Below are positions 430 through 39,194 of a stretch of DNA of 40,338 nucleotides, piece by piece. Numbering within the stretch: position 1 is the stretch's first letter; each line of letters opens with the position of its first letter. Both the position numbers and the translations under genes were made by a program. The notes beneath the pieces were generated by a model. The model ran no database searches. It worked only from the letters and a program-made list of their open reading frames with translations, and was not told the origin of the DNA. The stretch lies in UHGV virus genome UHGV-0319604. The stretch is one strand, 5' to 3'. Origin of the DNA: a virus.

Positions 430-1548
430 TTAAATAGCAAGTTTGGTCCATTCCTTCCCGCGATCATCGTTGTATCTGTCAGTGGTTGACTGTGTTTTAT
501 GCCCCAGCAAAATTTTCGTATCGATCCCCTGGGCGCGGTAAAGTCGTTCGGACAATGAGCGCTGTTCGTGAAACGTTGTGGGTGTTTTTCCTGCAGGCGG
601 TACGATACCGGCTGCATCACGTGCCGCGGCAAACTCTTTGGAAACCAAAATCAGATTCACAGGTTTCGCCTTACTGTTCATTTTCCCGTGCAAGAGGTAG
701 GGACTGACAAACCTATCCCTACATTTCCGTATTACATCCTCCAGCGATAAGCCAATGGCTTCACAACGGAGGTTCAGCGGCAATGCAATACGTGCCCCCG
801 TTTTGCTTTGCTCGATGTGCAGATAGCCGTCCTTAATGTCTGAAAATTTCATGTTCGCAATATCCTCCCGGCGCTGACCAGTGACTAACGCAAGCAGCAT
901 CGCTTTATGCGAGTACCGATCCTCGGGTATTTGCGCCAGTATTTTTTTCCATTCGTCCAGAGAGAGGCGCGCACGTGTAACCTTCACCGAGGGTTTTTTT
1001 GTTGCTGCTGGTGGATTCCATCCAGGAGGCACCTCTCCTGCATGTTGTGCTTCAGTGAAAATATCCACCCATACCACCCGGTTACAGAGGGCACTGCTGG
1101 CATGTCCTGCATCCAGATATTCATCCAGTAACACGGCAAAATCCTTTACCTCCAAACTCTTCATTGGCCGGGAACCAAGCCGCCTGGAAAGCAACTCTGC
1201 CATGCGTTTTTTTTCTTTAAAGCGTTTCAGCGATAGCGATCCGGCATCCAGGCTTTGTGTCTGAATCTTCAGATATCGTTCTATCCATGCTTTGAGGCTG
1301 ATCCCGCGCTGTGCTGCTGCTTTTGGAGTATCATCAATTTGGCGCAAATAGTGCTCGGCTTCTGCTGCTGCAATTCTCTGATTTGCCGTTGTGGCTATTT
1401 TTTCCGCTTTCTCTCTGTCTGTTCCCAGGCCGTGGAACTTACCCGTTAAAGGGTTTTTATACTGGTAGTATGTTTTTGCTGTGCGACGATCAAACCGGGC
1501 ATACAGCCCGGAAATTGATACATTATTTTTTCGTGGCCTTGGTGACAT
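430..1548 (-). CDS. int: Phage integrase, tyrosine recombinase family
   Basis: 372-aa ORF; C-terminal catalytic-type motifs HEQRSLSERLY ... LLGH ... DRY (H-x-x-R and terminal Tyr); position at prophage end overlapping excisionase gene. Confidence 0.85.
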   Translation of the reverse strand: MSPRPRKNNVSISGLYARFDRRTAKTYYQYKNPLTGKFHGLGTDREKAEKIATTANQRIAAAEAEHYLRQIDDTPKAAAQRGISLKAWIERYLKIQTQSLDAGSLSLKRFKEKKRMAELLSRRLGSRPMKSLEVKDFAVLLDEYLDAGHASSALCNRVVWVDIFTEAQHAGEVPPGWNPPAATKKPSVKVTRARLSLDEWKKILAQIPEDRYSHKAMLLALVTGQRREDIANMKFSDIKDGYLHIEQSKTGARIALPLNLRCEAIGLSLEDVIRKCRDRFVSPYLLHGKMNSKAKPVNLILVSKEFAAARDAAGIVPPAGKTPTTFHEQRSLSERLYRAQGIDTKILLGHKTQSTTDRYNDDRGKEWTKLAI

Positions 1549-1882: not shown

Positions 1883-2176
1883 TCAATCGGGCGTGTTGAT
1901 AAACTTCCTCACCAGCGCAGACTCCATTCGCCTGATACAGTCGCGTATCCTTGTCATTTGCACTTCGGGAAACTGACTCCGCCCCATCTCTTCCAGTACG
2001 CTGACAAGATGGTGATCCTGGACTTTGGTCGCCAGTACGCGAGCGCATGCACGCAATGATTCTCCGATACGCCGTTTTTCTATGGCTGCAAATGCTCGGC
2101 ACAGCTCCAGAGTTACCAGCGTGTCGGGAAATTCTGCAAATCGGGTATTGGCGATAACTTCCTTTGCTTTGATCAC
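1883..2176 (-). CDS. Hypothetical early protein (97 aa), GTG start overlapping upstream stop (GTGA)
   Basis: ORF in track (1883..2218); likely start is GTG at 2174-2176 overlapping the stop codon of the upstream 626-aa gene, suggesting translational coupling. Confidence 0.4.
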   Translation of the reverse strand: MIKAKEVIANTRFAEFPDTLVTLELCRAFAAIEKRRIGESLRACARVLATKVQDHHLVSVLEEMGRSQFPEVQMTRIRDCIRRMESALVRKFINTPD

Positions 2177-4053
2177 TCTGCAATCTCCTGCTGACTGATA
2201 ACGCTGCTGGCAAGCCACACGGCCATACCCGGTAGATCATCGTACTGATTGCAGTATGCAGGGTTAGCACATAACCCCTGCAGCGCGGCGGCCGTCAGCT
2301 GCTGATGATAGGTAAGGGCGAATGTTGATGGCTCAGGTACGGAAGCAGGGCGCTGTTCTTCTGGTTTGGCTTCGATCTCTGGGGGAGGCAAAACCACAGC
2401 AACAGGTGCCTCTTCAGTTCCTTCCTGCCGATATTGTTCTAAAATGCGCGTGAGATAATCGAATCGTGTTTCAGGGTTGTCGCTCCATTCTTCGAGCGCA
2501 TTCCAGACCAGATATTCAACATCGTCATCATCAATAATTTCTGGGGTCTCGCCATTTTCCAAAGCAAAAATATCAGTCATGATCATCATTGCAATGTGCG
2601 ATGAATCATGGCCTGTATTGGAGATCAGAAGCTCTGCCTCTTCCTCGTTAAAATAGGCAGTTCTCCCTGCCAGGGTATTTTCTACCAGCGCCTTAATTGC
2701 CTCCTCTCGTGCTGACAGCACAGGTTGATCGTCATTTTTGGCAGATGTAAGCGATTCGACTGTGAAGACGCCGCCGCCCAAGTTCTCCACCCGCGGTTGA
2801 TCCCCGGTTTGATTTTCAGGTGCAGGGCTCTGAGCGAATGCCTCTTTGAGTTCTTTGTCGAGTTGCGCAGCTTTGCCAGGGCAAACTGCTGGTGGCAGAG
2901 TTTCGCCCGGTACAGTCGATTCGGTTTCATCATTTTCTTTTTTCTCAGCATTGGTGCGAGGTTTTGGACGGCAGGCCGTATCAATTGTTTTCTGGTCAGG
3001 GTGCGCGTGGTCAGATTCAACCAACTCGCGATTGATGTACTCCCGTAATTTGATCGGATTGAGCCAGATGTCTTCTGGTGCTGACTTGATCAGGGCGATG
3101 ATGGACGCACGCGAATAGTCCAAAATTCCAGGGGTGCCGCGTAGCTGCGCCCACCATGCAGTAAAACGAGGATCCTGTGCGGCTTCCGCCATTGCTTTCG
3201 CTGGAATCATGTATTTATTCGGGATCCAGTAAATGTCGATCTCGTCGTACATACTCAGAATGGCAATAGCCACTTCGATACGCAGCGTAGAGAGGTTATG
3301 AACCAGATCCGGGCTACGGTCTGTCTTGTTGCCACCACCCAGCGTGGAGCCGGTGTCTGTACGGTTTTCTTCTGTGGTTGTGGTAGACTGAGGACGCTTA
3401 TCAACTGGTGTATCGATCCATTTAGCGATCTGCTTTTTGATGTCCGGCCACTGCGCAGATCCTTTGGTGTTCTCACGTAACCAGGAGAGTAATTGCTCCT
3501 GGCGTTCCGGCGCCAACTCAAGCGCGCGGCGCTCTTTTGCAAGTGCTTCTGCAAGCTCGCGGGCAAAGCTGGGTTCATCGTCATTCCTCAAATCGACGAT
3601 CTGGCCATACTGCGCTGAAGTGATTCCAGGGACCGGGCCGAACAGTGCCAGACAAGCTGCGCGGGATGCCTGGTCGAGCTGCGCAACGATTTTAATTTCT
3701 TCCTGAGTCTTGTTGTCCTCCCATTCTTCCTTTGCTTCAGTCTCTGGCTTTGGTGCAGCAGCTGGTTCACCGCGGTTGGTATTCCAGATAACGTGATCAC
3801 CAAAGAAATCAGAGCTAAACACATCAAGCTCAGGGCAGGGGAGATCATCATGGTGTTCCCAGATTTTCACCTTAAAATAATCATCAATATGTTCAGGATG
3901 TTCTGCCGCCAGCTTACCGAAAATAACGGCTTCAGCGATGGCTTTTGTGGCCGCATTAACTGCGGTGGCAAGTGGTTTTAAATCGGGATGTTTTTTTAAT
4001 GCTTTATCTTTTGGGAAGTAAGCACCACCAAATACTTTTAACTCAACAGACAT
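2173..4053 (-). CDS. Large acidic early-left protein, possibly RecE-family (exonuclease VIII-like) N-terminal/middle region without an obvious nuclease domain
   Basis: 626-aa ORF; segment GGGNKTDRSPDLVHNLSTLRIEV...DIYWIP...LDYSRASIIALIKSAP...ESDHAHPDQKTIDTAC resembles my recollection of RecE; gene order (Zn-ribbon small gene, then large gene, then xis/int) parallels the Rac prophage. Family assignment is from memory only. Confidence 0.4.
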   Translation of the reverse strand: MSVELKVFGGAYFPKDKALKKHPDLKPLATAVNAATKAIAEAVIFGKLAAEHPEHIDDYFKVKIWEHHDDLPCPELDVFSSDFFGDHVIWNTNRGEPAAAPKPETEAKEEWEDNKTQEEIKIVAQLDQASRAACLALFGPVPGITSAQYGQIVDLRNDDEPSFARELAEALAKERRALELAPERQEQLLSWLRENTKGSAQWPDIKKQIAKWIDTPVDKRPQSTTTTEENRTDTGSTLGGGNKTDRSPDLVHNLSTLRIEVAIAILSMYDEIDIYWIPNKYMIPAKAMAEAAQDPRFTAWWAQLRGTPGILDYSRASIIALIKSAPEDIWLNPIKLREYINRELVESDHAHPDQKTIDTACRPKPRTNAEKKENDETESTVPGETLPPAVCPGKAAQLDKELKEAFAQSPAPENQTGDQPRVENLGGGVFTVESLTSAKNDDQPVLSAREEAIKALVENTLAGRTAYFNEEEAELLISNTGHDSSHIAMMIMTDIFALENGETPEIIDDDDVEYLVWNALEEWSDNPETRFDYLTRILEQYRQEGTEEAPVAVVLPPPEIEAKPEEQRPASVPEPSTFALTYHQQLTAAALQGLCANPAYCNQYDDLPGMAVWLASSVISQQEIAE

Positions 4054-26175: not shown

Positions 26176-26346
26176 ATGTTTGTGAAACCCGCGAAAGGGC
26201 GATCCGTTCCGGATCCGGCCCGGGGCGATGTATTGCCTGCAAAAGGGCGAAACGTCGAAGCGTCCGCGTACTGGTTCCGCCGGAAAGCTGCAGGCGAAAT
26301 CGAAGTAATTCAACAAAAAGGGGTTAAAGATGACCGTAAGCTTTAA
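26176..26346 (+). CDS. Possible small protein (56 aa) preceding the sheath gene
   Basis: ATG 26176 to TAA 26344-26346, overlapping the sheath start by 17 nt; below track cutoff. Confidence 0.3.
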   Translation: MFVKPAKGRSVPDPARGDVLPAKGRNVEASAYWFRRKAAGEIEVIQQKGVKDDRKL

Positions 26347-27844
26347 TTACATCCCGGCAGATAACCGGGTACCGCTGTTTTATGCAGAAATGGACAACAG
26401 CGCCGCAAACACCGCGCAGGATAGCGGCCCATCCCTGCTGATTGGCATGGCATTGTCCGACTCTGACATGCCTGTGAACCAGCTGGTCATCATGCCGTCC
26501 AAAGACCTGGCAAAAAAAATGGCAGGGCGCGGAAGCCAGCTGGCGCGCATGGTGGAAGCATACCGCCGCGTTGACCCGTTCGGTGAACTGTGGGTTATCG
26601 CTGTGCCTGACAACGGGCAGGCGGCAACCGGTACGATCACTTTCTCCGGCACCGCGACAGACGCCGGTTCGGTAAACCTTTATATCGGTACCACCCGCGT
26701 ACAGGTAACAGTCGCGGCAAATGACACGGGAGCAGATACCGCCCAGGCTTTGCTGGCTGCGATTAACGGCAATCCTGATTTGCCTGTCACGGCGCAATAT
26801 AAAGTGACGTCCGCCGGGCCTGACCAGGGCACGCTGGAGCTTACGGCCGTGAATGGTGGTGTGAGCGGAAACAGCATCCCGTTATCCCTCAATTATTACG
26901 GCACGGCCAGCGGGGAAGAAGTTCCAGCAGGGTTAAGTATTCAGATCGGCAAAATGAGTGGCGGGGCGGGCGACCCGGATTTAACCGGAACGATCGCCGC
27001 GATGGGGGATGAGCCGTTCGATTATATTGGCCTGCCATTCAGCGACAGCGCCTCGCTGCAGCTGATGGCGACGGAGATGAACGACAGCTCCGGTCGCTGG
27101 AGCTATATTCGCCAGCTATACGGTCATGTGTACACCGCCAGAACTGGCACACTGTCTGAGCTGGTGGCCTACGGTGATACGTTCAATTATCAGCACATCA
27201 CCATCGCGGGCTATGAACCAGATGTACAAACCGGAGTTGATGAGCTGGTGGCGTATCGTCTGGCGCGTCAGGCCGTATTCTTACGTAACGACCCGGCACG
27301 ACCGACGCAAACCGGAGAGCTGACAGGTGCACTCCCGGCACCCACCGGCAAGCGTTTTACCATCACAGAGCAGCAATCATTACTGATGCATGGTATTGCC
27401 ACGGCGTACACCGAATCCGGTATTTTGCGCATTCAGCGCGACATCACGACCTATAAAACCAACGCCTACGGTGTGGCAGATAACAGCTATCTGGACAGCG
27501 AAACGCTGCATACCAGCGCTTACGTTCTGCGTCGCCTGAAATCGGTGATCACCAGTAAATACGGCCGCCACAAACTGGCGAACGATGGTACCCGCTTTGG
27601 CCCAGGCCAGGCGATTGTTACGCCGTCTGTTATTCGTGGTGAACTGGGGGCGGTATACCGCCAGCTCGAGCGTGAGGGGATCGTGGAAAACTTTGATCTC
27701 TTCCAGCAATACCTGATTGTCGAGCGCAACGCATCAGACCCGAATCGTCTGGATGTCCTGTTCCCGCCTGATTACGTCAACCAGCTGCGTGTGTTTGCTG
27801 TGCTTAACCAGTTCCGTCTGCAATACAACGAGGAGGCCGCATAA
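26330..27844 (+). CDS. Tail sheath protein (Mu-like contractile tail)
   Basis: 504-aa ORF directly followed by a ~118-aa tube gene, chaperone and tape measure; size and order typical of Mu-type sheath. Confidence 0.75.
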   Translation: MTVSFNYIPADNRVPLFYAEMDNSAANTAQDSGPSLLIGMALSDSDMPVNQLVIMPSKDLAKKMAGRGSQLARMVEAYRRVDPFGELWVIAVPDNGQAATGTITFSGTATDAGSVNLYIGTTRVQVTVAANDTGADTAQALLAAINGNPDLPVTAQYKVTSAGPDQGTLELTAVNGGVSGNSIPLSLNYYGTASGEEVPAGLSIQIGKMSGGAGDPDLTGTIAAMGDEPFDYIGLPFSDSASLQLMATEMNDSSGRWSYIRQLYGHVYTARTGTLSELVAYGDTFNYQHITIAGYEPDVQTGVDELVAYRLARQAVFLRNDPARPTQTGELTGALPAPTGKRFTITEQQSLLMHGIATAYTESGILRIQRDITTYKTNAYGVADNSYLDSETLHTSAYVLRRLKSVITSKYGRHKLANDGTRFGPGQAIVTPSVIRGELGAVYRQLEREGIVENFDLFQQYLIVERNASDPNRLDVLFPPDYVNQLRVFAVLNQFRLQYNEEAA

Positions 27845-28200
27845 TGGCAAAGATTGCGGGTACCACTTATTTCAAAATCGACGGGCAGCAGCTGTCCATC
27901 ACTGGCGGCATTGAAGTGCCGATGAACACCCGTGTTCGTGATGACGTGATCGGCCTTGCCGGTGATGTCGATTACAAGGAAACGCACCGGGCACCCTATA
28001 CGAAGGTCACAGCAAAGGTGCCCAAAAACTTCCCGGTGAACAAAATCACCACCGCCGACACCATGACCATCACCTCTGAACTGGCGAACGGTCAGGTTTA
28101 TGTCCTTTCAAACGCCTGGCTGCATGGTGAGGCAAACCATAATCCCGAAGAGGGCACGGTGGATCTGGAATTCCACGGTGAAGAAGGATTTTATCAATGA
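27844..28200 (+). CDS. Tail tube protein
   Basis: 118-aa ORF overlapping the sheath stop (TAATG); between sheath and chaperone. Confidence 0.65.
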   Translation: MAKIAGTTYFKIDGQQLSITGGIEVPMNTRVRDDVIGLAGDVDYKETHRAPYTKVTAKVPKNFPVNKITTADTMTITSELANGQVYVLSNAWLHGEANHNPEEGTVDLEFHGEEGFYQ

Positions 28201-28523
28201 CAAAAGAACTGGCCCTGAAAAAGCCTATTCTGGCGCATAACGAAAAGTTGCATGTGCTGGAGCTGCGCGAACCGACTTACGACGAAATTGAGGCGATTGG
28301 CTTTCCTTTTACCGTATCCGGTGACGGTGGGGTGAAGCTGGATAGTGCTGTTGCGTTGAAGTATATCCCGGTGCTGGCGGGGATCCCCCGGTCATCAGCA
28401 GCGCAGCTGGCAAAGCTGGATATCTTCAAAGCCTGCATGCTGATCCTGAATTTTTTTACCCAATCGGAGACGGATCCAACCTCAGACGACGATTCTACAA
28501 CGTCGCCTGGTTCTGGAAATTAA
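28197..28523 (+). CDS. Tail assembly chaperone (G-like)
   Basis: 108-aa acidic ORF immediately upstream of the tape measure gene; contains a T7 slippery run near its 3' end. Confidence 0.6.
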   Translation: MTKELALKKPILAHNEKLHVLELREPTYDEIEAIGFPFTVSGDGGVKLDSAVALKYIPVLAGIPRSSAAQLAKLDIFKACMLILNFFTQSETDPTSDDDSTTSPGSGN

Positions 28524-28615
28524 ACCCCCTTGAGCTACGGCGGACGGCCATATCTGACTTCCTGGAGCTGGAAGCGGAGGCCGTCCGCATTAACGAGGAA
28601 GTAAAGCATGGCTGA
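28451..28615 (+). other. Predicted -1 programmed frameshift site (TTTTTTT at 28451-28457) and -1-frame extension giving a G-T-like chaperone fusion
   Basis: 0-frame reads aat ttt ttt acc (N F F T); the -1 frame is open from the slip site to TGA at 28613-28615 (...FFYPIGDGSNLRRRFYNVAWFWKLNPLELRRTAISDFLELEAEAVRINEEVKHG), ending just after the tape measure start. Confidence 0.5.
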
Positions 28616-30584
28616 CAGTTTCCAGTTAAAGGCAATCATCACCGCCGTTGACCAGCTGACCGGGCCGATGAAGGGAATGCAGCGTGAGCTTAAGGGCTTC
28701 CAGAAGGAGATGGGCAGTCTTGCGCTGGGGGCGGCAGCCGCAGGAACTGCCATCCTCGGTGCGCTGGCGCTGCCCATTAATTCTGCGATCGGGTTTGAGT
28801 CAAAAATGGCCGACATCCGAAAGGTAGTTGACGGCCTCGATGATAAAAAAGCGTTTGCGCAGATGAGTGACGATATCCTGACGCTGTCCACGCAGTTACC
28901 GATGGCGGCGGAGGGGATCGCAGAGATTGTGGCGGCAGGCGGCCAGGCGGGGATCGCGCGTAGTGATCTGATGCAGTTCGCCAACGACGCCGTAAAAATG
29001 GGTGTCGCGTTTGACACCACAGCTGAAGAGTCCGGCCAGATGATGGCGCAGTGGCGAACGGCGTTCAAACTGACACAGGATGACGTGGTTGTTCTCGCTG
29101 ACAAGATCAACTATCTGGGGAATACCGGCCCGGCCAACGCGAAGAAAATATCTGAAATCGTCACCCGTATCGGTCCGCTGGGCAGCGTTGCGGGTGTTGC
29201 TTCGGGTGAAATTGCCGCCATGGGGGCCACGATCGCCGGGATGGGGGTAGAATCAGAAATAGCCTCAACCGGTATCAAAAACTTCATGCTGTCGCTTACC
29301 GCTGGAAAATCTGCGACAAAGTCTCAGAAGGAAGCATTAAGAGCCCTTCGGATAAACCCTTCTAAATTAGCTGCTGAAATGCAAAAAGACTCTAAAACCG
29401 CGATCCTCAAGGTTTTAGACTCTCTTTCAAAACTGTCAGCAACTGACAGACCTCAGATATTGACTCAGCTTTTCGGTAAAGAGTCGATAGGGGCTATCGC
29501 ACCGTTGCTGACCAACATGGATCTATTACGCACCAACTTTGAGCGCGTGGCAAATGCCCAGGAATACGGCGGCTCGATGCAGAAGGAATACGCATCCCGT
29601 GCGGCTACAACCGAAAACCAGCTGGTACTGCTGAAAAACAGCGTGAATGCGATTTCGGTGACGCTGGGGGACACTTTCCTGCCCGCCATTAACGAAGCTG
29701 CAGAAGCGGTCATGCCTTACCTGGAGCAGCTCAGAACTTTCGTTCGCGCGAATCCTGAACTGGTACAGACTGCGGCAAAATTTGGTGCGGCGCTGCTGGG
29801 CGTTGGCGTTTCTATCGGCGTGTTATCCCGTGCGATAAAAGTTCTGAATACGGTAATCAATCTGTCACCGGCCAAAGTTGCGATCGCAGCGCTGGCGGCT
29901 GGCGCCATGCTGATCATCCAGAACTGGGATGACGTTGCACCGGTAATAAAAGCTGCGTGGGTTGAGGTGGATAAGGTGGCTCAGGCATTTGGCGGATGGG
30001 AAACCGTACTGGGTGGCGTGGGCTTATATATGACAGGGGCGTTTACAGTTAAAACGATCGGTACCCTGCGCTCAGCGCTGACCCTGGCGACGCAGCTTTC
30101 CGGCGTTCTGGGGAAAATCGCCATGCTGGGAGCAACAACAGTACAGATTGCTGTTGCTATCTACATGTTTGAACAGCTGAAAGAGATAGCCGATGCGGCA
30201 AAGGAAGCGGATCAAACAGATTCATTCTGGGAGTCTCTTAAAAACCGCTGGAATTCTGGTGGCTGGTATAACAACCAGCAAAACCGCGAAATGGTAAAGC
30301 AGGATACAGCAGAGAATTTTCAGCTTCCTGAACCATTGAAAGCATCGATGTATGAGCCTGCAGTACCTTTGGTTCAACCTGTGCGGGTCAGTCCTCCTTC
30401 TTTAGAGTTGGGTAAGCAGCCAGTACTTGAGCGTGCTACCTCTCCGGTTACACAGCGCGGGGAGCTTAAAGTGACTTTCGATAACGCCCCTCCGGGAATG
30501 CGCGTGCAGGAGATCCCGAAAAGCGGTGACCCACTGATGAACATAACCCATGATGTGGGGTATTCTCCTTTCAGGAATAAATAA
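28608..30584 (+). CDS. Tail tape measure protein
   Basis: 658-aa ORF, Ala/Gly-rich helical with hydrophobic central segments; canonical position after the chaperone. Confidence 0.85.
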   Translation: MADSFQLKAIITAVDQLTGPMKGMQRELKGFQKEMGSLALGAAAAGTAILGALALPINSAIGFESKMADIRKVVDGLDDKKAFAQMSDDILTLSTQLPMAAEGIAEIVAAGGQAGIARSDLMQFANDAVKMGVAFDTTAEESGQMMAQWRTAFKLTQDDVVVLADKINYLGNTGPANAKKISEIVTRIGPLGSVAGVASGEIAAMGATIAGMGVESEIASTGIKNFMLSLTAGKSATKSQKEALRALRINPSKLAAEMQKDSKTAILKVLDSLSKLSATDRPQILTQLFGKESIGAIAPLLTNMDLLRTNFERVANAQEYGGSMQKEYASRAATTENQLVLLKNSVNAISVTLGDTFLPAINEAAEAVMPYLEQLRTFVRANPELVQTAAKFGAALLGVGVSIGVLSRAIKVLNTVINLSPAKVAIAALAAGAMLIIQNWDDVAPVIKAAWVEVDKVAQAFGGWETVLGGVGLYMTGAFTVKTIGTLRSALTLATQLSGVLGKIAMLGATTVQIAVAIYMFEQLKEIADAAKEADQTDSFWESLKNRWNSGGWYNNQQNREMVKQDTAENFQLPEPLKASMYEPAVPLVQPVRVSPPSLELGKQPVLERATSPVTQRGELKVTFDNAPPGMRVQEIPKSGDPLMNITHDVGYSPFRNK

Positions 30585-30600
30585 CATCTGGAGATGGAGT

Positions 30601-31053
30601 ATGAATAAAACATTGGTTGCTGCTTGTGTGATGGTTTTGTCTTTTCCTGTATTCGCAAAAAAATCACCTACAGCGGATTTCGTCAATGAAATTGAAACAG
30701 CAATAAACTCAACAGGAGAAGTCTCTACCTCTCTGGATATTACTTGTCCTGCACAATCTGCGAGCGGGCGGGTTTTGGTCACTCATGCCGATTATACTTA
30801 TGGATTGAGTAAGGGAGTCTTTGTCTTCAAAAACACAGATGATATTCCTGCAGAAATGAAAAGTATTATTCCCATCCATCCAAACAACGACATTACGTCG
30901 GATGTCATAAGCGGGTGGGATTTTGGTTTTATAATTCGCGGTGGTCAATTTTTCGTAACGGTTATGAAAAATGGTGTCGTGAAAGCAGGGATAAATAAAA
31001 ACGGCACAACCGGTGTTACGGAAATCAAATGTAAAGTGACAAAACCGCAGTAA
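30601..31053 (+). CDS. Secreted small protein (signal peptide, two Cys), AT-rich moron
   Basis: MNKTLVAACVMVLSFPVFA|KKSP signal peptide; low GC relative to flanks; own terminator downstream; inserted between tape measure and DNA-circulation genes. Confidence 0.5.
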   Translation: MNKTLVAACVMVLSFPVFAKKSPTADFVNEIETAINSTGEVSTSLDITCPAQSASGRVLVTHADYTYGLSKGVFVFKNTDDIPAEMKSIIPIHPNNDITSDVISGWDFGFIIRGGQFFVTVMKNGVVKAGINKNGTTGVTEIKCKVTKPQ

Positions 31054-31109: not shown

Positions 31110-32453
31110 ATGGCTTTTTTTTCTTCAACTGACTGGCGCGACAGGCTGCGTGATGCGTCGTTTCGTGGGGTACCTTTTTCAGTGGAGGATGATGAAGGCA
31201 CCTTTGGCCGCCGTGTCCAGGTGCATGAGTATCCAAACCGCGATAAACCCTTTACGGAGGATTTAGGCCGGGCCACGCGGAGAATGACGATCAACGCCTA
31301 CTTAATCGGGGATGATTATGCCGATAAGCGCGATCGTCTAATTGGTGCTGTTGAAACGGCCGGTCCGGGTACGCTTGTTCACCCCCAGTACGGGGAAATG
31401 CAGGGCAGTATCGACGGGCAGGTGAGAGTTACGCACAGCAATGCTGAGGGGCGTATGTGCCGCGTCTCTTTCCAGTTCGTGGAAAGCGGCGAACTGTCAT
31501 TCCCGGTGGCAGGTATGGCGACGGCGCAGCGGCTGAAACAATCCGGCGGCCTGTTTGATGATGCGATTGAAAGCATGTTCTCTGCGTTTTCGCTCTCCGG
31601 CATTGCTGACTTCATCCAGAATGATGTGCTGGCGGACGCGGCCGCGATGCTCGGCGATGTTGCCGACGCATTCCGGATGGTTGATTCCGGCGTCTCAGCG
31701 GCGATGCGTCTGCTGCAGGGCGATCTGTCGGTCATTCTTATGCCGCCAAGCGCGGCCAGTGATTTTGTGCGTGAGCTGCAAAAGGCGTGGCGCGCGGGCG
31801 ATCGGCTTACGGGCGATACGTCAGACCTTGTAACGATGATTAAAACGATGTCAGGCGTGACGCTTGATCCGGGGCTGGCGCCACGGGGAACCTGGCCGAC
31901 AGATTCCGGCTCTGTTGAGGTGCAAAAGGCCAGGAGTAATATGATTGCCGCGGTCATCAGATCTTCGGCAATCAGTACCGCGTCACAGGCGGTGTCCACG
32001 CTGGCGCAGCCCAAAACCATCGCGGCGCCGCAGGGGCAGGCTGGCAAGATTACTGGCGGCGCGGCCAGCAATGACATTATTAATATCTCTCATCCTGCGC
32101 TCGACGGCTCCGGTACCACAGTTGCGCCGGAAGACCCGCCGACGTGGGACGAATTAACCGAAATCCGCAGCGCACTGAATGCAGCCATCGACCAGGAGCA
32201 GCTGCGAATTACCGATGACGGAATTTTCCAGCAAATAACGGTACTGAGAACGGACCTCAACCGGGATATTTCCGCCCGACTTGCGCAGGTGGAAATCACT
32301 GCAGAGCGAACTCCTCCTGATGTGCTGCCAGCACTGGTGCTGGCGGCTAACTGGTATGACGATGCGGATCGGGAAAAAGATATTCTTTCGCGAAATCTGG
32401 TTCGTCATCCCGGGTTCGTTCCGGTTAAACCTCTGAGGGTGCCCGTGAGATGA
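31110..32453 (+). CDS. DNA circulation protein (Mu gpN-like)
   Basis: 447-aa ORF after the tape measure; N-terminal FRGVPFSVEDDEGTFGRRVQVHEYP typical of Mu N-type proteins. Confidence 0.7.
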   Translation: MAFFSSTDWRDRLRDASFRGVPFSVEDDEGTFGRRVQVHEYPNRDKPFTEDLGRATRRMTINAYLIGDDYADKRDRLIGAVETAGPGTLVHPQYGEMQGSIDGQVRVTHSNAEGRMCRVSFQFVESGELSFPVAGMATAQRLKQSGGLFDDAIESMFSAFSLSGIADFIQNDVLADAAAMLGDVADAFRMVDSGVSAAMRLLQGDLSVILMPPSAASDFVRELQKAWRAGDRLTGDTSDLVTMIKTMSGVTLDPGLAPRGTWPTDSGSVEVQKARSNMIAAVIRSSAISTASQAVSTLAQPKTIAAPQGQAGKITGGAASNDIINISHPALDGSGTTVAPEDPPTWDELTEIRSALNAAIDQEQLRITDDGIFQQITVLRTDLNRDISARLAQVEITAERTPPDVLPALVLAANWYDDADREKDILSRNLVRHPGFVPVKPLRVPVR

Positions 32454-38081: not shown

Positions 38082-39194
38082 TTACCTTTTGGAACAATCC
38101 TCGTTACTATTCAAGCATTCATCAATCAAATCAAGTATAGGACTTACATCTGCATCCATAACGCGACGCTCTTTTAGTCTCACCTGTTTAGCTAATTTAT
38201 AGTTTGGCCCCCACACATCCGCATTATCTGCTGGGGCGACGAGTATTTTGAATGGGTAAACACAGATTAGCCTTTTCTGAAATGCTCTGGATACATGTAC
38301 AAAAGAAGTGTCTGGGGAAATAACTAGAGCGCTTTCTTTTATTATTTGTGCTGCGGAAAAGAATGACGGCGTAGTATTTTTAGTTACATTTTCTGAATCG
38401 GGGATAGATGCAATTTTATGCTGCTCCCCGAGGATGATCATGTGATACGAATTGGCGTGTTTAGCCATATGATTTGTTATGGTTTCAATTTGCGAGGCTG
38501 AAAAAAAGCGCTCGCTGACGCTACCATAAGGGATAAATGACACTATTATTTTATTAGTGGTCTTTTTAATAAATTCCTGTGCCGCATCAGCATCTTTTTT
38601 AGGAATGATAACAGAGTAATCATAATCTGTTACACTGATACCTAACCCTTCAAGCAGGTCGATGTACCGTGTGCTAATATGAGCCAAGGGATTTTTTATT
38701 TTAATGACTTCATCGTATATTCGATATTTGTTTGTAAATCCAATGGTCTTATAAGGCTTGGAGAGTCTAATTAAATTAAATGTATCAACATTAGAGTGAG
38801 TTACCTCATGCGAATCAATGAAAGTAAATGGATTGATTGCATTGAGCGCAGCAAGGAGCGGCTTTTTATTATTTGGTTCATATAAATATAACCCGTGTAA
38901 ATTTTTCCACTCTTTAAATAAAAAATAAGTTCTTTTATCTGCTATTACAGACACCCGGTAATTGTTTCTCACCAGTGTATCAATTACCCCTCCAATAACA
39001 ACAGCATCCCCAATACCTTTAGCGATGAAAGGTATTACCAAATGGTTTGTTCCCGAATCAAGCCTGTCTTTATTGCGGCGGGCGCGAGTAGCAATCTCAC
39101 TTAATAAACTCAATTTGAGCTTTAATTTTGCTCTTTTGAGATAATAATTTTTAGATCTGTTTGCTTTCCTAAGCCATTTGATCACTGTTTTCAC
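38082..39194 (-). CDS. Glycosyltransferase family 9-like (heptosyltransferase-like) protein, AT-rich moron
   Basis: 370-aa ORF; IAKGIGDAVVIGGVIDTL (GT9 N-terminal signature) and ALVISPDTSFVHVSRAFQKRLICVY (GT9 C-terminal segment); clearly lower GC than the phage backbone; opposite strand to tail genes. Confidence 0.55.
   Translation of the reverse strand: MKTVIKWLRKANRSKNYYLKRAKLKLKLSLLSEIATRARRNKDRLDSGTNHLVIPFIAKGIGDAVVIGGVIDTLVRNNYRVSVIADKRTYFLFKEWKNLHGLYLYEPNNKKPLLAALNAINPFTFIDSHEVTHSNVDTFNLIRLSKPYKTIGFTNKYRIYDEVIKIKNPLAHISTRYIDLLEGLGISVTDYDYSVIIPKKDADAAQEFIKKTTNKIIVSFIPYGSVSERFFSASQIETITNHMAKHANSYHMIILGEQHKIASIPDSENVTKNTTPSFFSAAQIIKESALVISPDTSFVHVSRAFQKRLICVYPFKILVAPADNADVWGPNYKLAKQVRLKERRVMDADVSPILDLIDECLNSNEDCSKR

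What the first reader, a model, noticed from the sequence alone, without database searches (positions are those of the whole stretch)
28451..28615. Predicted -1 programmed ribosomal frameshift in the tail assembly chaperone gene
A T7 run (28451-28457) lies in the 0 frame as N-FF-T near the end of the chaperone ORF. The -1 frame is open from there to a stop at 28613-28615, just past the tape measure start codon, which would give a fusion with a ~52-aa extension. This conserved expression mechanism of tailed phages is usually missed by ORF callers.
Basis: partly seen in the sequence, partly recalled or inferred. Interest (0 to 1): 0.5.

Follow-up and report, generated by a model that had tools for sequence, protein, structure and literature searches.

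The report
Tail chaperone −1 frameshift site
The small gene between the tail tube and tape measure genes of this prophage carries a conserved slippery T-run that very probably makes some ribosomes slip back one base and produce a longer second protein; this is a well-known phage trick, and annotators have missed it in this phage group.

Summary
A T7 run (28451-28457) lies in frame as AAT TTT TTT ACC at codons 85-88 of a 108-aa tail assembly chaperone ORF (28197-28523, Pfam PF10109). From there the −1 frame runs 52 codons to TGA 28613-28615, which overlaps the tape measure ATG (28608) by 8 nt.

- 114 of 117 homologous loci carry T_TTT_TT[T/C] at the same codon, with a 45-57-aa −1 extension.
- Substitutions downstream follow −1-frame codon periodicity (p≈2e-5; p≈4e-8 in the SfV-type subgroup).
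- The residue before Phe-Phe varies through seven amino acids, but its third base is always T.
- The −1 ORF has no start codon.
- Phage P2 E/E+E', the proven case, shares the N-terminal family, the slip position (GFL/GFF) and the 8-nt overlap with the tape measure gene.
- No stimulatory RNA structure is detectable, which is reported for P2 as well.

None of nine related GenBank/RefSeq phage records annotates the frameshift.

Verdict: a real, ordinary, unannotated member of the conserved tail-chaperone frameshift class. It has not been shown experimentally here, and a minor contribution from transcriptional slippage is not excluded.

The parts
27844..28200 (+). Tail tube gene (118 aa). Its TGA overlaps the chaperone ATG (ATGA), which defines the upstream boundary of the chaperone slot.
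   Evidence: PF10618 Tail_tube E=3.9e-32 and phrog_185; ORF list.
28197..28523 (+). 0-frame tail assembly chaperone ORF (108 aa). It is the short, presumably major product, analogous to P2 gpE and lambda gpG.
   Evidence: PF10109 Phage_TAC_7 at 29.3 bits against a 25-bit cutoff, and phrog_166 E=8e-27. Database homologues are named 'phage tail assembly protein'.
28451..28457 (+). Slippery heptamer T_TTT_TTT. P-site TTT is 28452-28454 and A-site TTT is 28455-28457. This is the proposed site of the tandem -1 slip of tRNA-Phe.
   Evidence: The sequence itself. It is the only in-frame X_XXY_YYZ motif in the ORF. T_TTT_TT[T/C] is conserved at the same codon in 114/117 homologous loci. The third base of the preceding codon is T in 31/31 representatives below 90% identity, although that residue varies among G, N, R, S, D, I and V.
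28457..28615 (+). -1-frame extension (52 codons plus TGA), analogous to P2 E' and lambda T. It is reached only from the chaperone ORF.
   Evidence: Translation. There is no ATG/GTG/TTG anywhere in the open -1 frame 28346-28612. It matches phrog_32181 at E=7e-6. Minimum substitutions by -1-frame codon position are 25/12/47 after the 0-frame stop, p=1.7e-5. Amino-acid identity there is 0.84 in the -1 frame against 0.58 and 0.55 in the other frames.
28458..28523 (+). Dispensable 0-frame tail (TQSETDPTSDDDSTTSPGSGN plus stop), which overlaps the start of the -1 extension.
   Evidence: It is 3 to 26 aa long and poorly conserved among relatives. In the overlap, substitutions follow the -1 frame (19/13/28), not the 0 frame (13/28/19). 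Amino-acid identity is 0.72 in the -1 frame against 0.60 in the 0 frame.
28608..30584 (+). Tape measure protein gene (658 aa). Its ATG lies inside the last codons of the -1 extension (ATGGCTGA, an 8-nt overlap).
   Evidence: TIGR01760 E=3e-91 and PF10145. The 8-nt ATGGCTGA overlap is present in 54 of 75 unique related sequences. P2 has the same 8-nt overlap between E+E' and T.

Best explanation

Most ribosomes translate 28197-28523 and release a 108-aa chaperone. A minority slip when tRNA-Phe occupies the P site (UUU, 28452-28454) and the A site (UUU, 28455-28457). Both tRNAs move back one base on U_UUU_UUU and re-pair perfectly. Translation then continues in the -1 frame from UAC (28457-28459) for 52 codons to UGA 28613-28615. 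The result is a 139-aa fusion that shares the first 87 residues with the short form.

By analogy with lambda gpG/gpGT and P2 gpE/gpE+E', the shared N-terminal domain coats the tape measure protein. The frameshift-encoded C-terminal domain recruits the tail tube protein. The fixed low ratio of long to short form is set by the slip frequency.

No RNA stimulator is evident, so the heptamer alone probably sets a low efficiency of a few percent.

Shown here: the anatomy, the family assignment, and evolutionary conservation of the heptamer and of the -1 coding frame. Inferred: that the slip occurs, that it is ribosomal, its efficiency, and the division of labour between the two domains.
For: 1. Position and family.
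- The gene order is sheath, tube, chaperone, tape measure.
- The chaperone scores above the gathering threshold on PF10109, the family that holds P2 E and Mu gp41.
- An AlphaFold model of a natural fused homologue (P0008) best matches viral 'tape measure chaperone' and 'tail assembly chaperone' models (E=3.4e-4, probability 1.00). Mu FS-gp41 is a weak hit.

2. The motif is canonical and correctly phased. It is the only such motif in the ORF.

3. Conservation.
- 114 of 117 homologous loci from GTDB genomes and IMG/VR have T_TTT_TTT (39 unique) or T_TTT_TTC (16 unique) at codons 82-87.
- These loci have a 45-57-aa -1 ORF.
- 9 of 9 annotated phages show the same arrangement.

4. There is a nucleotide-level constraint beyond the protein sequence.
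- The residue before Phe-Phe varies through 7 amino acids, yet its synonymous third base is always T.
- The first Phe codon is always TTT, although TTT is only 50% of Phe codons in the window.

5. The -1 frame is under purifying selection.
- Codon-position substitution counts are 25/12/47 (p=1.7e-5).
- In SfV-type relatives, over DNA annotated as intergenic, the counts are 32/16/66 (p=3.5e-8).

6. The -1 ORF has no start codon.

7. Phage P2 is the experimentally established precedent.
- Its RefSeq record annotates E+E' as a joined CDS with a -1 frameshift at TTTTTTG.
- A profile alignment puts P2 'VGFL' on this clade's 'xGFF'.
- The product lengths are 91/142 aa in P2 and 108/139 aa here.
- Both long forms end 8 nt into the tape measure gene.

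8. U_UU.Y ranks second among -1-prone A-site tetramers in E. coli (PMC4066793).
Against: - No product has been observed; everything is sequence inference.
- No stimulatory structure or upstream SD-like element was found. Fold z-scores are about 0, RNAalifold gives 0 pairs and Rfam gives nothing. Efficiency may therefore be low. The same absence is reported for P2-like phages (PMC3091744).
- The extension does not reach any Pfam model, including PF06528 Phage_P2_GpE. Its similarity to P2 E' and to the Mu +1-frame extension is only weak (hhalign E=0.002 and 0.001).
- A homopolymer run could also yield the same protein by RNA polymerase slippage. T8 DNA alleles exist.
Confidence: 0.85

Rival explanations
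1. Transcriptional slippage. RNA polymerase stutters on the template A7 run and makes a fraction of mRNAs with U8. Standard translation of these mRNAs gives the same 139-aa fusion.
For: - The product would be identical.
- The run is unstable at the DNA level. T8 alleles in Pantoea agglomerans (L134) and IMG/VR L048, and a T5 allele (P0001), hard-fuse the frames.
- UUUUUUU is under-represented in E. coli genes in all frames. One suggested reason is transcriptional slippage (PMC4066793).
Against: - The known bacterial cases cited in the review use runs of 9 A/T (PMC5009743).
- The run here is 7, and only 6 (T6C) in 16 of 55 unique relatives.
- No lineage has lengthened the run to 9 or more.
- The run is always in the one phase that makes a ribosomal X_XXY_YYZ heptamer, with a Phe codon (UUY) in the A site.
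- In P2 the homologous site is T6G.
Confidence: 0.08
2. Sequencing or assembly error, or pseudogene. The true gene would be a single 139-aa ORF (T8), and the T7 run would be a homopolymer miscall or an inactivating mutation.
For: Fused single-ORF alleles exist in databases (P0001-P0011; L134 and L048).
Against: - An identical T7 context occurs in independent assemblies that carry the same chaperone (L130-L133).
- T7 or T6C is found in 114 loci from many genera and sequencing projects. T6C cannot be a run-length miscall of a fused gene.
- The fused alleles are rare and have heterogeneous causes (T8, T5, downstream indels).
- The proven P2 precedent has the two-frame layout.
Confidence: 0.03
3. 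Independent small gene. The -1 ORF would be translated from its own start as a separate small protein, as implied by records that form phrog_32181.
For: The extension matches phrog_32181, a 63-position family of stand-alone annotated ORFs (E=7e-6).
Against: - There is no ATG, GTG or TTG in the whole open -1 frame 28346-28612.
- The ORF listing returns no + strand ORF there.
- The conserved part begins directly at the heptamer.
Confidence: 0.02
4. Coincidence. The T7 run merely encodes a structurally needed Phe-Phe, and the open -1 frame is a chance or non-coding spacer.
For: Within the window alone, P(open >=52 codons) is about 0.036, and T7 runs are common.
Against: - The spacer shows -1-frame codon periodicity.
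- Synonymous sites of the heptamer are invariant.
- The extension's length and end point are conserved.
Confidence: 0.02

Closest known systems
Bacteriophage P2 gpE / gpE+E' (-1 frameshift at T_TTT_TTG in the FETUD tail operon; Christie et al. 2002; Xu, Hendrix & Duda 2004, as cited in PMC3091744)
   Same: - Both are contractile-tail phages, and the gene sits between tube and tape measure.
- The N-terminal domain belongs to the same Pfam family, PF10109 (P2 47.5 bits, window 29.3 bits).
- The slip site is at the aligned position, at the very end of that domain (P2 V-G-F-L, this clade x-[GNRS]-F-F).
- Both use a T6N heptamer.
- The product sizes are similar (91/142 vs 108/139 aa).
- The long form ends 8 nt into the tape measure gene in both.
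- Neither has a downstream RNA structure (PMC3091744).
   Different: - The A-site codon is UUU/UUC (Phe, perfect re-pairing) instead of UUG (Leu).
- The extension does not match Pfam PF06528 Phage_P2_GpE and shows only weak profile similarity (E=0.002).
- The window's 0-frame tail is longer (21 aa vs 6 aa).
- The rest of the tail module is Mu-like, not P2-like.
Bacteriophage lambda gpG / gpGT (-1 frameshift at G_GGA_AAG; Levin 1993; Xu 2013, 2014, as summarised in PMC5009743)
   Same: The genomic slot is the same, as is the logic: a short chaperone plus a rare C-terminally extended fusion made from one start codon. In lambda the 30:1 ratio is crucial for tail assembly, and neither product is in the virion. 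This is the source of the functional model used here.
   Different: - Lambda has a non-contractile tail.
- No sequence family is shared, since there was no Pfam gpG/T hit.
- The heptamer is different.
Bacteriophage Mu gp41 / FS-gp41 (frameshift reported as -2; PMC5009743, PMC2628397)
   Same: - The sheath, tube, DNA-circulation and baseplate genes flanking this chaperone are Mu-type.
- Pfam names gp41 in the PF10109 family description.
- The Mu +1-frame extension aligns weakly with this extension (E=0.0014).
- UniProt FS-gp41 appears among the fold hits.
   Different: - Mu reaches the other alternative frame (-2/+1), not -1.
- Mu gp41 is longer (144 aa).
- In Mu the extension does not overlap the tape measure start in the same way.

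Membership tests
Conserved tail assembly chaperone frameshift of long-tailed dsDNA phages (lambda G/GT type; Xu et al. 2004) | The gene lies between the major tail/tube gene and the tape measure gene. | tested here: met
   Tube 27844-28200, chaperone 28197-28523, tape measure 28608-30584.
Conserved tail assembly chaperone frameshift of long-tailed dsDNA phages (lambda G/GT type; Xu et al. 2004) | A second ORF in an alternative frame overlaps the 3' end of the first, lacks its own start, and ends near the tape measure start. | tested here: met
   The -1 frame is open from 28346 to 28612 with no ATG/GTG/TTG. Its stop at 28613-28615 lies 8 nt into the tape measure ORF.
Conserved tail assembly chaperone frameshift of long-tailed dsDNA phages (lambda G/GT type; Xu et al. 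2004) | There is an in-phase slippery heptamer X_XXY_YYZ within the overlap. | tested here: met
   T_TTT_TTT at 28451-28457. It is the only such motif in the ORF.
Conserved tail assembly chaperone frameshift of long-tailed dsDNA phages (lambda G/GT type; Xu et al. 2004) | The slip site and the second frame are conserved in relatives, with a coding signature in the second frame. | tested here: met
   114 of 117 loci. Codon-position periodicity has p=1.7e-5 and p=3.5e-8. Synonymous sites of the heptamer are invariant.
Conserved tail assembly chaperone frameshift of long-tailed dsDNA phages (lambda G/GT type; Xu et al. 2004) | Both the short and the frameshifted long protein are made, and both are needed for tail assembly. 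| not testable with these tools
   This needs a reporter assay, mass spectrometry or genetics.
P2 gpE / gpE+E' family | The N-terminal domain matches PF10109 (Phage_TAC_7) above the gathering score. | tested here: met
   29.3 bits against a 25-bit cutoff, E=8.7e-7. The SfII-type relative scores 55.3 bits and P2 E+E' scores 47.5 bits.
P2 gpE / gpE+E' family | The frameshift-encoded C-terminus matches PF06528 (Phage_P2_GpE). | tested here: not met
   No hit for the window extension at E<=0.1, nor for any of 20 diverse extensions at E<=10. P2 E+E' itself scores 76 bits. Only weak hhalign similarity was found, E=0.0023 over 33 columns.
P2 gpE / gpE+E' family | There is a T6N slippery site at the end of the chaperone domain, and the long form terminates just inside the tape measure gene. 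| tested here: met
   P2 has GGT TTT TTG and an 8-nt overlap with T. The window has AAT TTT TTT and an 8-nt overlap.
Mu gp41-type -2 frameshift | The extension is encoded in the +1 (= -2) frame. | tested here: not met
   In the window the +1 frame is closed around the site, and the extension is in the -1 frame. Mu is described as -2 in PMC5009743.
Programmed transcriptional slippage sites | A homopolymer A/T run of about 9 or more. | tested here: not met
   The run is 7 T here and 6 T in 16 of 55 unique relatives. The review cites runs of 9.
Structured -1 PRF signals (dnaX / IS3 type) | A downstream hairpin or pseudoknot 5-9 nt from the heptamer, or an upstream internal SD. | tested here: not met
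   MFE z-scores range from -0.36 to +0.77 in the window and its close relatives. RNAalifold finds 0 conserved pairs in 11 diverse sequences. Rfam has no hit.

The most novel reading that the evidence does not exclude
The T-run may do double duty. It would be a ribosomal slip site and also a mutational or transcriptional length-variable tract. Populations would then carry T7 (two products) and T8/T5 or indel alleles (fusion only), giving a heritable on/off or ratio switch for tail production. The widespread hard-fused allele in Shigella flexneri (P0006, 661 contigs) and the T8 alleles in Pantoea would be states of that switch rather than simple decay. Separately, the extension could be a tube-binding domain family distinct from P2 GpE (PF06528).
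Probability: 0.07. Interest if true: 0.45.

Novelty: new member of a known kind. Interest (0 to 1): 0.22.

Why it matters
The main value is for annotation. In this common group of enterobacterial temperate phages (ST64B, SfV, SfII, SfIV, phiP27 and many prophages), a protein likely to be essential for tail assembly is missing from every record inspected. The 84-141 bp before the tape measure gene is wrongly treated as intergenic. Adding join(28197..28457,28457..28615) corrects the proteome.

The result also explains why the T-run is conserved. It flags hard-fused or decayed alleles as likely markers of defective prophages.

The clade also offers a clean natural series for studying stimulator-free -1 frameshifting: T_TTT_TTT, T_TTT_TTC and P2's T_TTT_TTG at one homologous position. 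It does not change any concept in the field.

Tried and rejected
- Downstream RNA stimulator. Single-sequence folds of the window and five of its relatives are no more stable than shuffles. Only SfII shows z=-2.5, from a hairpin 44 nt downstream that is not conserved elsewhere. RNAalifold finds no pairs and Rfam finds none. Rejected.
- Upstream SD-like stimulator. None was seen in the conserved context by eye; no tool was run for this.
- NCBIfam. No model hits the chaperone, the fusion or the extension.
- Pfam GpE for the extension. No hit.
- PDB. No relative by sequence or by fold.
- E. coli complete genomes. No near match to the locus.
- Structure prediction of the virtual window fusion. A natural T8 homologue (P0008) was modelled instead. 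Its N-terminal domain is confident (pLDDT about 80-93). The extension is helical but low-confidence (pLDDT 49-63), so nothing is claimed about its fold.
- Literature. Christie et al. 2002 is not held. I could not verify whether Xu et al. 2004 listed SfV or ST64B, because the PRFect supplement does not name them. No held paper describes this frameshift in ST64B, SfV, SfIV or phiP27.
- The upstream-domain substitution counts are unreliable, because ungapped stacking crosses indels. They were not used.

Full report
**1. What is in the sequence**

The window region reads ...CTG ATC CTG AAT TTT TTT ACC CAA TCG..., with seven T's at 28451-28457.
- The ORF 28197-28523 (ATG...TAA, 108 aa) places these bases as AAT TTT TTT ACC = N-F-F-T. 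T_TTT_TTT is therefore a canonical X_XXY_YYZ heptamer in the phase needed for a tandem -1 slip.
- After such a slip the next codon is TAC (28457-28459). The -1 frame then reads YPIGDGSNLRRRFYNVAWFWKLNPLELRRTAISDFLELEAEAVRINEEVKHG (52 aa) to TGA 28613-28615.
- The next gene starts at ATG 28608, so the two ORFs overlap by the 8 nt ATGGCTGA.
- The predicted long product is join(28197..28457, 28457..28615), 139 aa.

**2. Context**

The window looks like a complete temperate phage.
- It carries a lambda-type integrase (430-1548, minus strand), a large terminase, a portal and an HK97-fold capsid. It also has a Mu-like contractile tail module: a DNA-circulation protein and a gp44/GpP baseplate hub.
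- Around the site the order is sheath (26330-27844; Phage_sheath_1), tube (27844-28200; PF10618), the 108-aa ORF, then the tape measure protein (28608-30584; TIGR01760, E=3e-91).
- The 108-aa ORF scores above threshold on PF10109, 'Phage tail assembly chaperone proteins, E, or 41 or 14'.
- The nearest sequenced phages are Salmonella ST64B (80.5% nt), phiP27, SfIV, SfII, SfV, Pantoea AH07, Edwardsiella EPP-1 and Yersinia YeP1.
- The same chaperone sequence occurs on more than 24 contigs in public assemblies. The closest named homologues come from Yokenella, Enterobacter and Salmonella.

**3. Is it more than chance?**

Inside the window alone the case is only moderate.
- T7 runs are frequent: 28 matches on both strands against 11.5 expected.
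- A 52-codon open -1 stretch has P≈0.036.
- Of 29 in-phase X_XXY_YYZ heptamers in 19 genes, this is the only one that lengthens the protein.
- The open -1 frame (28346-28612, 89 codons) contains no ATG, GTG or TTG.

The comparative evidence is decisive.
- All 9 annotated relatives have T_TTT_TTT or T_TTT_TTC at the aligned codon, and a 52-53-aa -1 ORF that ends 5-8 nt past the tape measure start.
- Among 117 further loci found by protein homology in GTDB genomes and IMG/VR, 114 show the same arrangement. There are 55 unique versions, 39 with T7 and 16 with T6C.
- The three exceptions are truncated or decayed copies in Arsenophonus and Candidatus Pantoea bathycoeliae.

The DNA downstream evolves as -1-frame coding sequence.
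- Between the 0-frame stop and the -1 stop, minimum substitutions by -1-frame codon position are 25/12/47 (chi-square p=1.7e-5). Amino-acid identity there is 0.84 in the -1 frame against 0.58 and 0.55 in the other frames.
- In the SfV-type subgroup the 0-frame ends 3 codons after the heptamer, and 141 nt are annotated as intergenic. There the counts are 32/16/66 (p=3.5e-8).
- In the two-frame overlap the -1 frame is the constrained one (19/13/28; aa identity 0.72 vs 0.60). The 0-frame tail varies from 3 to 26 residues.

The heptamer is also constrained at synonymous sites. In 31 representatives below 90% identity, the residue before Phe-Phe is G, N, R, S, D, I or V, but its third base is always T. 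The first Phe codon is always TTT, although TTT is only 50% of Phe codons in this window.

These substitution counts are not phylogenetically independent, so the p-values are approximate.

**4. Mechanism**

The best-supported reading is a stimulator-free -1 programmed ribosomal frameshift.
- Both tRNA-Phe re-pair perfectly after the slip.
- The A-site codon is UUY in every relative.
- U_UU.Y is the second most -1-prone A-site tetramer in E. coli (PMC4066793).
- No downstream structure exceeds shuffled controls, none is conserved, and Rfam finds nothing. The same absence is reported for P2 and P2-like phages (PMC3091744).

The functional model is inferred from lambda. There, gpG and the G part of gpGT bind the tape measure protein, the T part binds the tube protein, and a 30:1 ratio is crucial (PMC5009743).

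The function proposed for the extension is not tested here. The AlphaFold model of a natural fused homologue is confident only for the N-terminal domain. That domain's best fold matches are viral tape-measure and tail assembly chaperones.

**5. Rivals**

- Transcriptional slippage would give the same protein and cannot be excluded as a minor contributor. However, the run is only 7 T, and 6 T in about a third of the unique relatives. No lineage has a run of 9 or more, the length of the known bacterial cases. The run is also always in the ribosomal phase.
- A homopolymer sequencing error is unlikely. T7 recurs in independent assemblies, and T6C relatives cannot arise that way.
- An independently initiated small gene is excluded by the lack of any start codon.
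- Pure coincidence is excluded by the periodicity and synonymous-site data.

**6. Comparison with known systems**

The closest proven case is P2 gpE/gpE+E'.
- Its RefSeq record annotates a joined CDS with a -1 shift at GGT TTT TTG.
- P2 E and this chaperone share PF10109, and a profile alignment superimposes P2 'VGFL' on 'xGFF'.
- Product sizes are 91/142 aa in P2 and 108/139 aa here.
- Both long forms end 8 nt into the tape measure gene. The ATGGCTGA overlap is present in 54 of 75 unique relatives.

There are two differences from P2.
- The A-site codon is Phe rather than Leu.
- The extension fails the Pfam GpE model PF06528. It has only weak profile similarity to P2 E' (E=0.002) and to the Mu +1-frame extension (E=0.001).

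Mu's tail genes otherwise resemble this module, but Mu is reported to use a -2 shift. This locus therefore works like P2 and lambda, and not like Mu in this respect.

**7. Novelty**

The mechanism is textbook. What is new is only that it is unannotated in this clade.
- Nine GenBank/RefSeq records list just the short ORF.
- The protein database holds the 108-aa form named 'phage tail assembly protein'. The few full-length 'fusions' are indel alleles, not annotated recoding.
- I could not check whether Xu et al. 2004 already listed SfV or ST64B.

I rate it a new member of a known kind, with low-to-moderate interest (0.22).

Noticed in passing
window 30550-31053 (+): A 167-aa ORF lies between the tape measure and DNA-circulation genes. 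Its N-terminus looks like a signal peptide (MNKTLVAACVMVLSFPVFAKK) and it has no Pfam hit. GC is about 0.40-0.44 against 0.55-0.60 in the flanks, so it looks like a moron (accessory cargo) insertion inside the tail operon.
   Followed up: partly
P0006 / P0003 / P0030 (Shigella flexneri; also L049): In S. flexneri, the homologous chaperone is hard-fused by an indel downstream of the intact T7 run (...RFFTQSETGSTSG|KRLYNVAWFW...). P0006 (142 aa) is recorded on 661 contigs. If the lambda rule on product ratio holds, this prophage lineage should be tail-defective.
   Followed up: partly
L134 1752-1759 (Pantoea agglomerans JAIWZA010000001.1); L048 2255-2262 (IMG/VR); P0001: Some alleles vary the length of the slippery run itself. 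T8 in L134 and L048, and T5 in P0001 (sequence ...MRFYRLGDG...), make the long form the only product. It is not resolved whether these are real mutations or homopolymer miscalls.
   Followed up: partly
L015, L031 (Arsenophonus endosymbiont of Aleurodicus), L023 (Candidatus Pantoea bathycoeliae): These are the only homologous loci without the heptamer and extension. They are truncated or frameshifted chaperone genes in insect endosymbiont genomes, consistent with prophage decay.
   Followed up: no
window 31115-31122 (+): A T8 run sits at codons 2-4 of the DNA-circulation gene (ATG GCT TTT TTT TCC). It is also an in-phase T_TTT_TTT heptamer, but its -1 read-out stops after 3 codons. It is probably just an indel-prone tract.
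   Followed up: no
window 38082-39194 (-): A 370-aa ORF near the right end has a weak glycosyltransferase family 9 (heptosyltransferase) hit (E=4e-5). It may be LPS-modifying cargo, reminiscent of the serotype-converting genes of SfV-type phages.
   Followed up: no
window 28197-28200 and 27841-27846: The tail operon shows tight translational-coupling overlaps. Tube stop and chaperone start share ATGA. Sheath stop and tube start share TAATG.
   Followed up: no
window 2173-4053 (-): A 626-aa ORF in the early region has no Pfam hit at E<=0.001.
   Followed up: no
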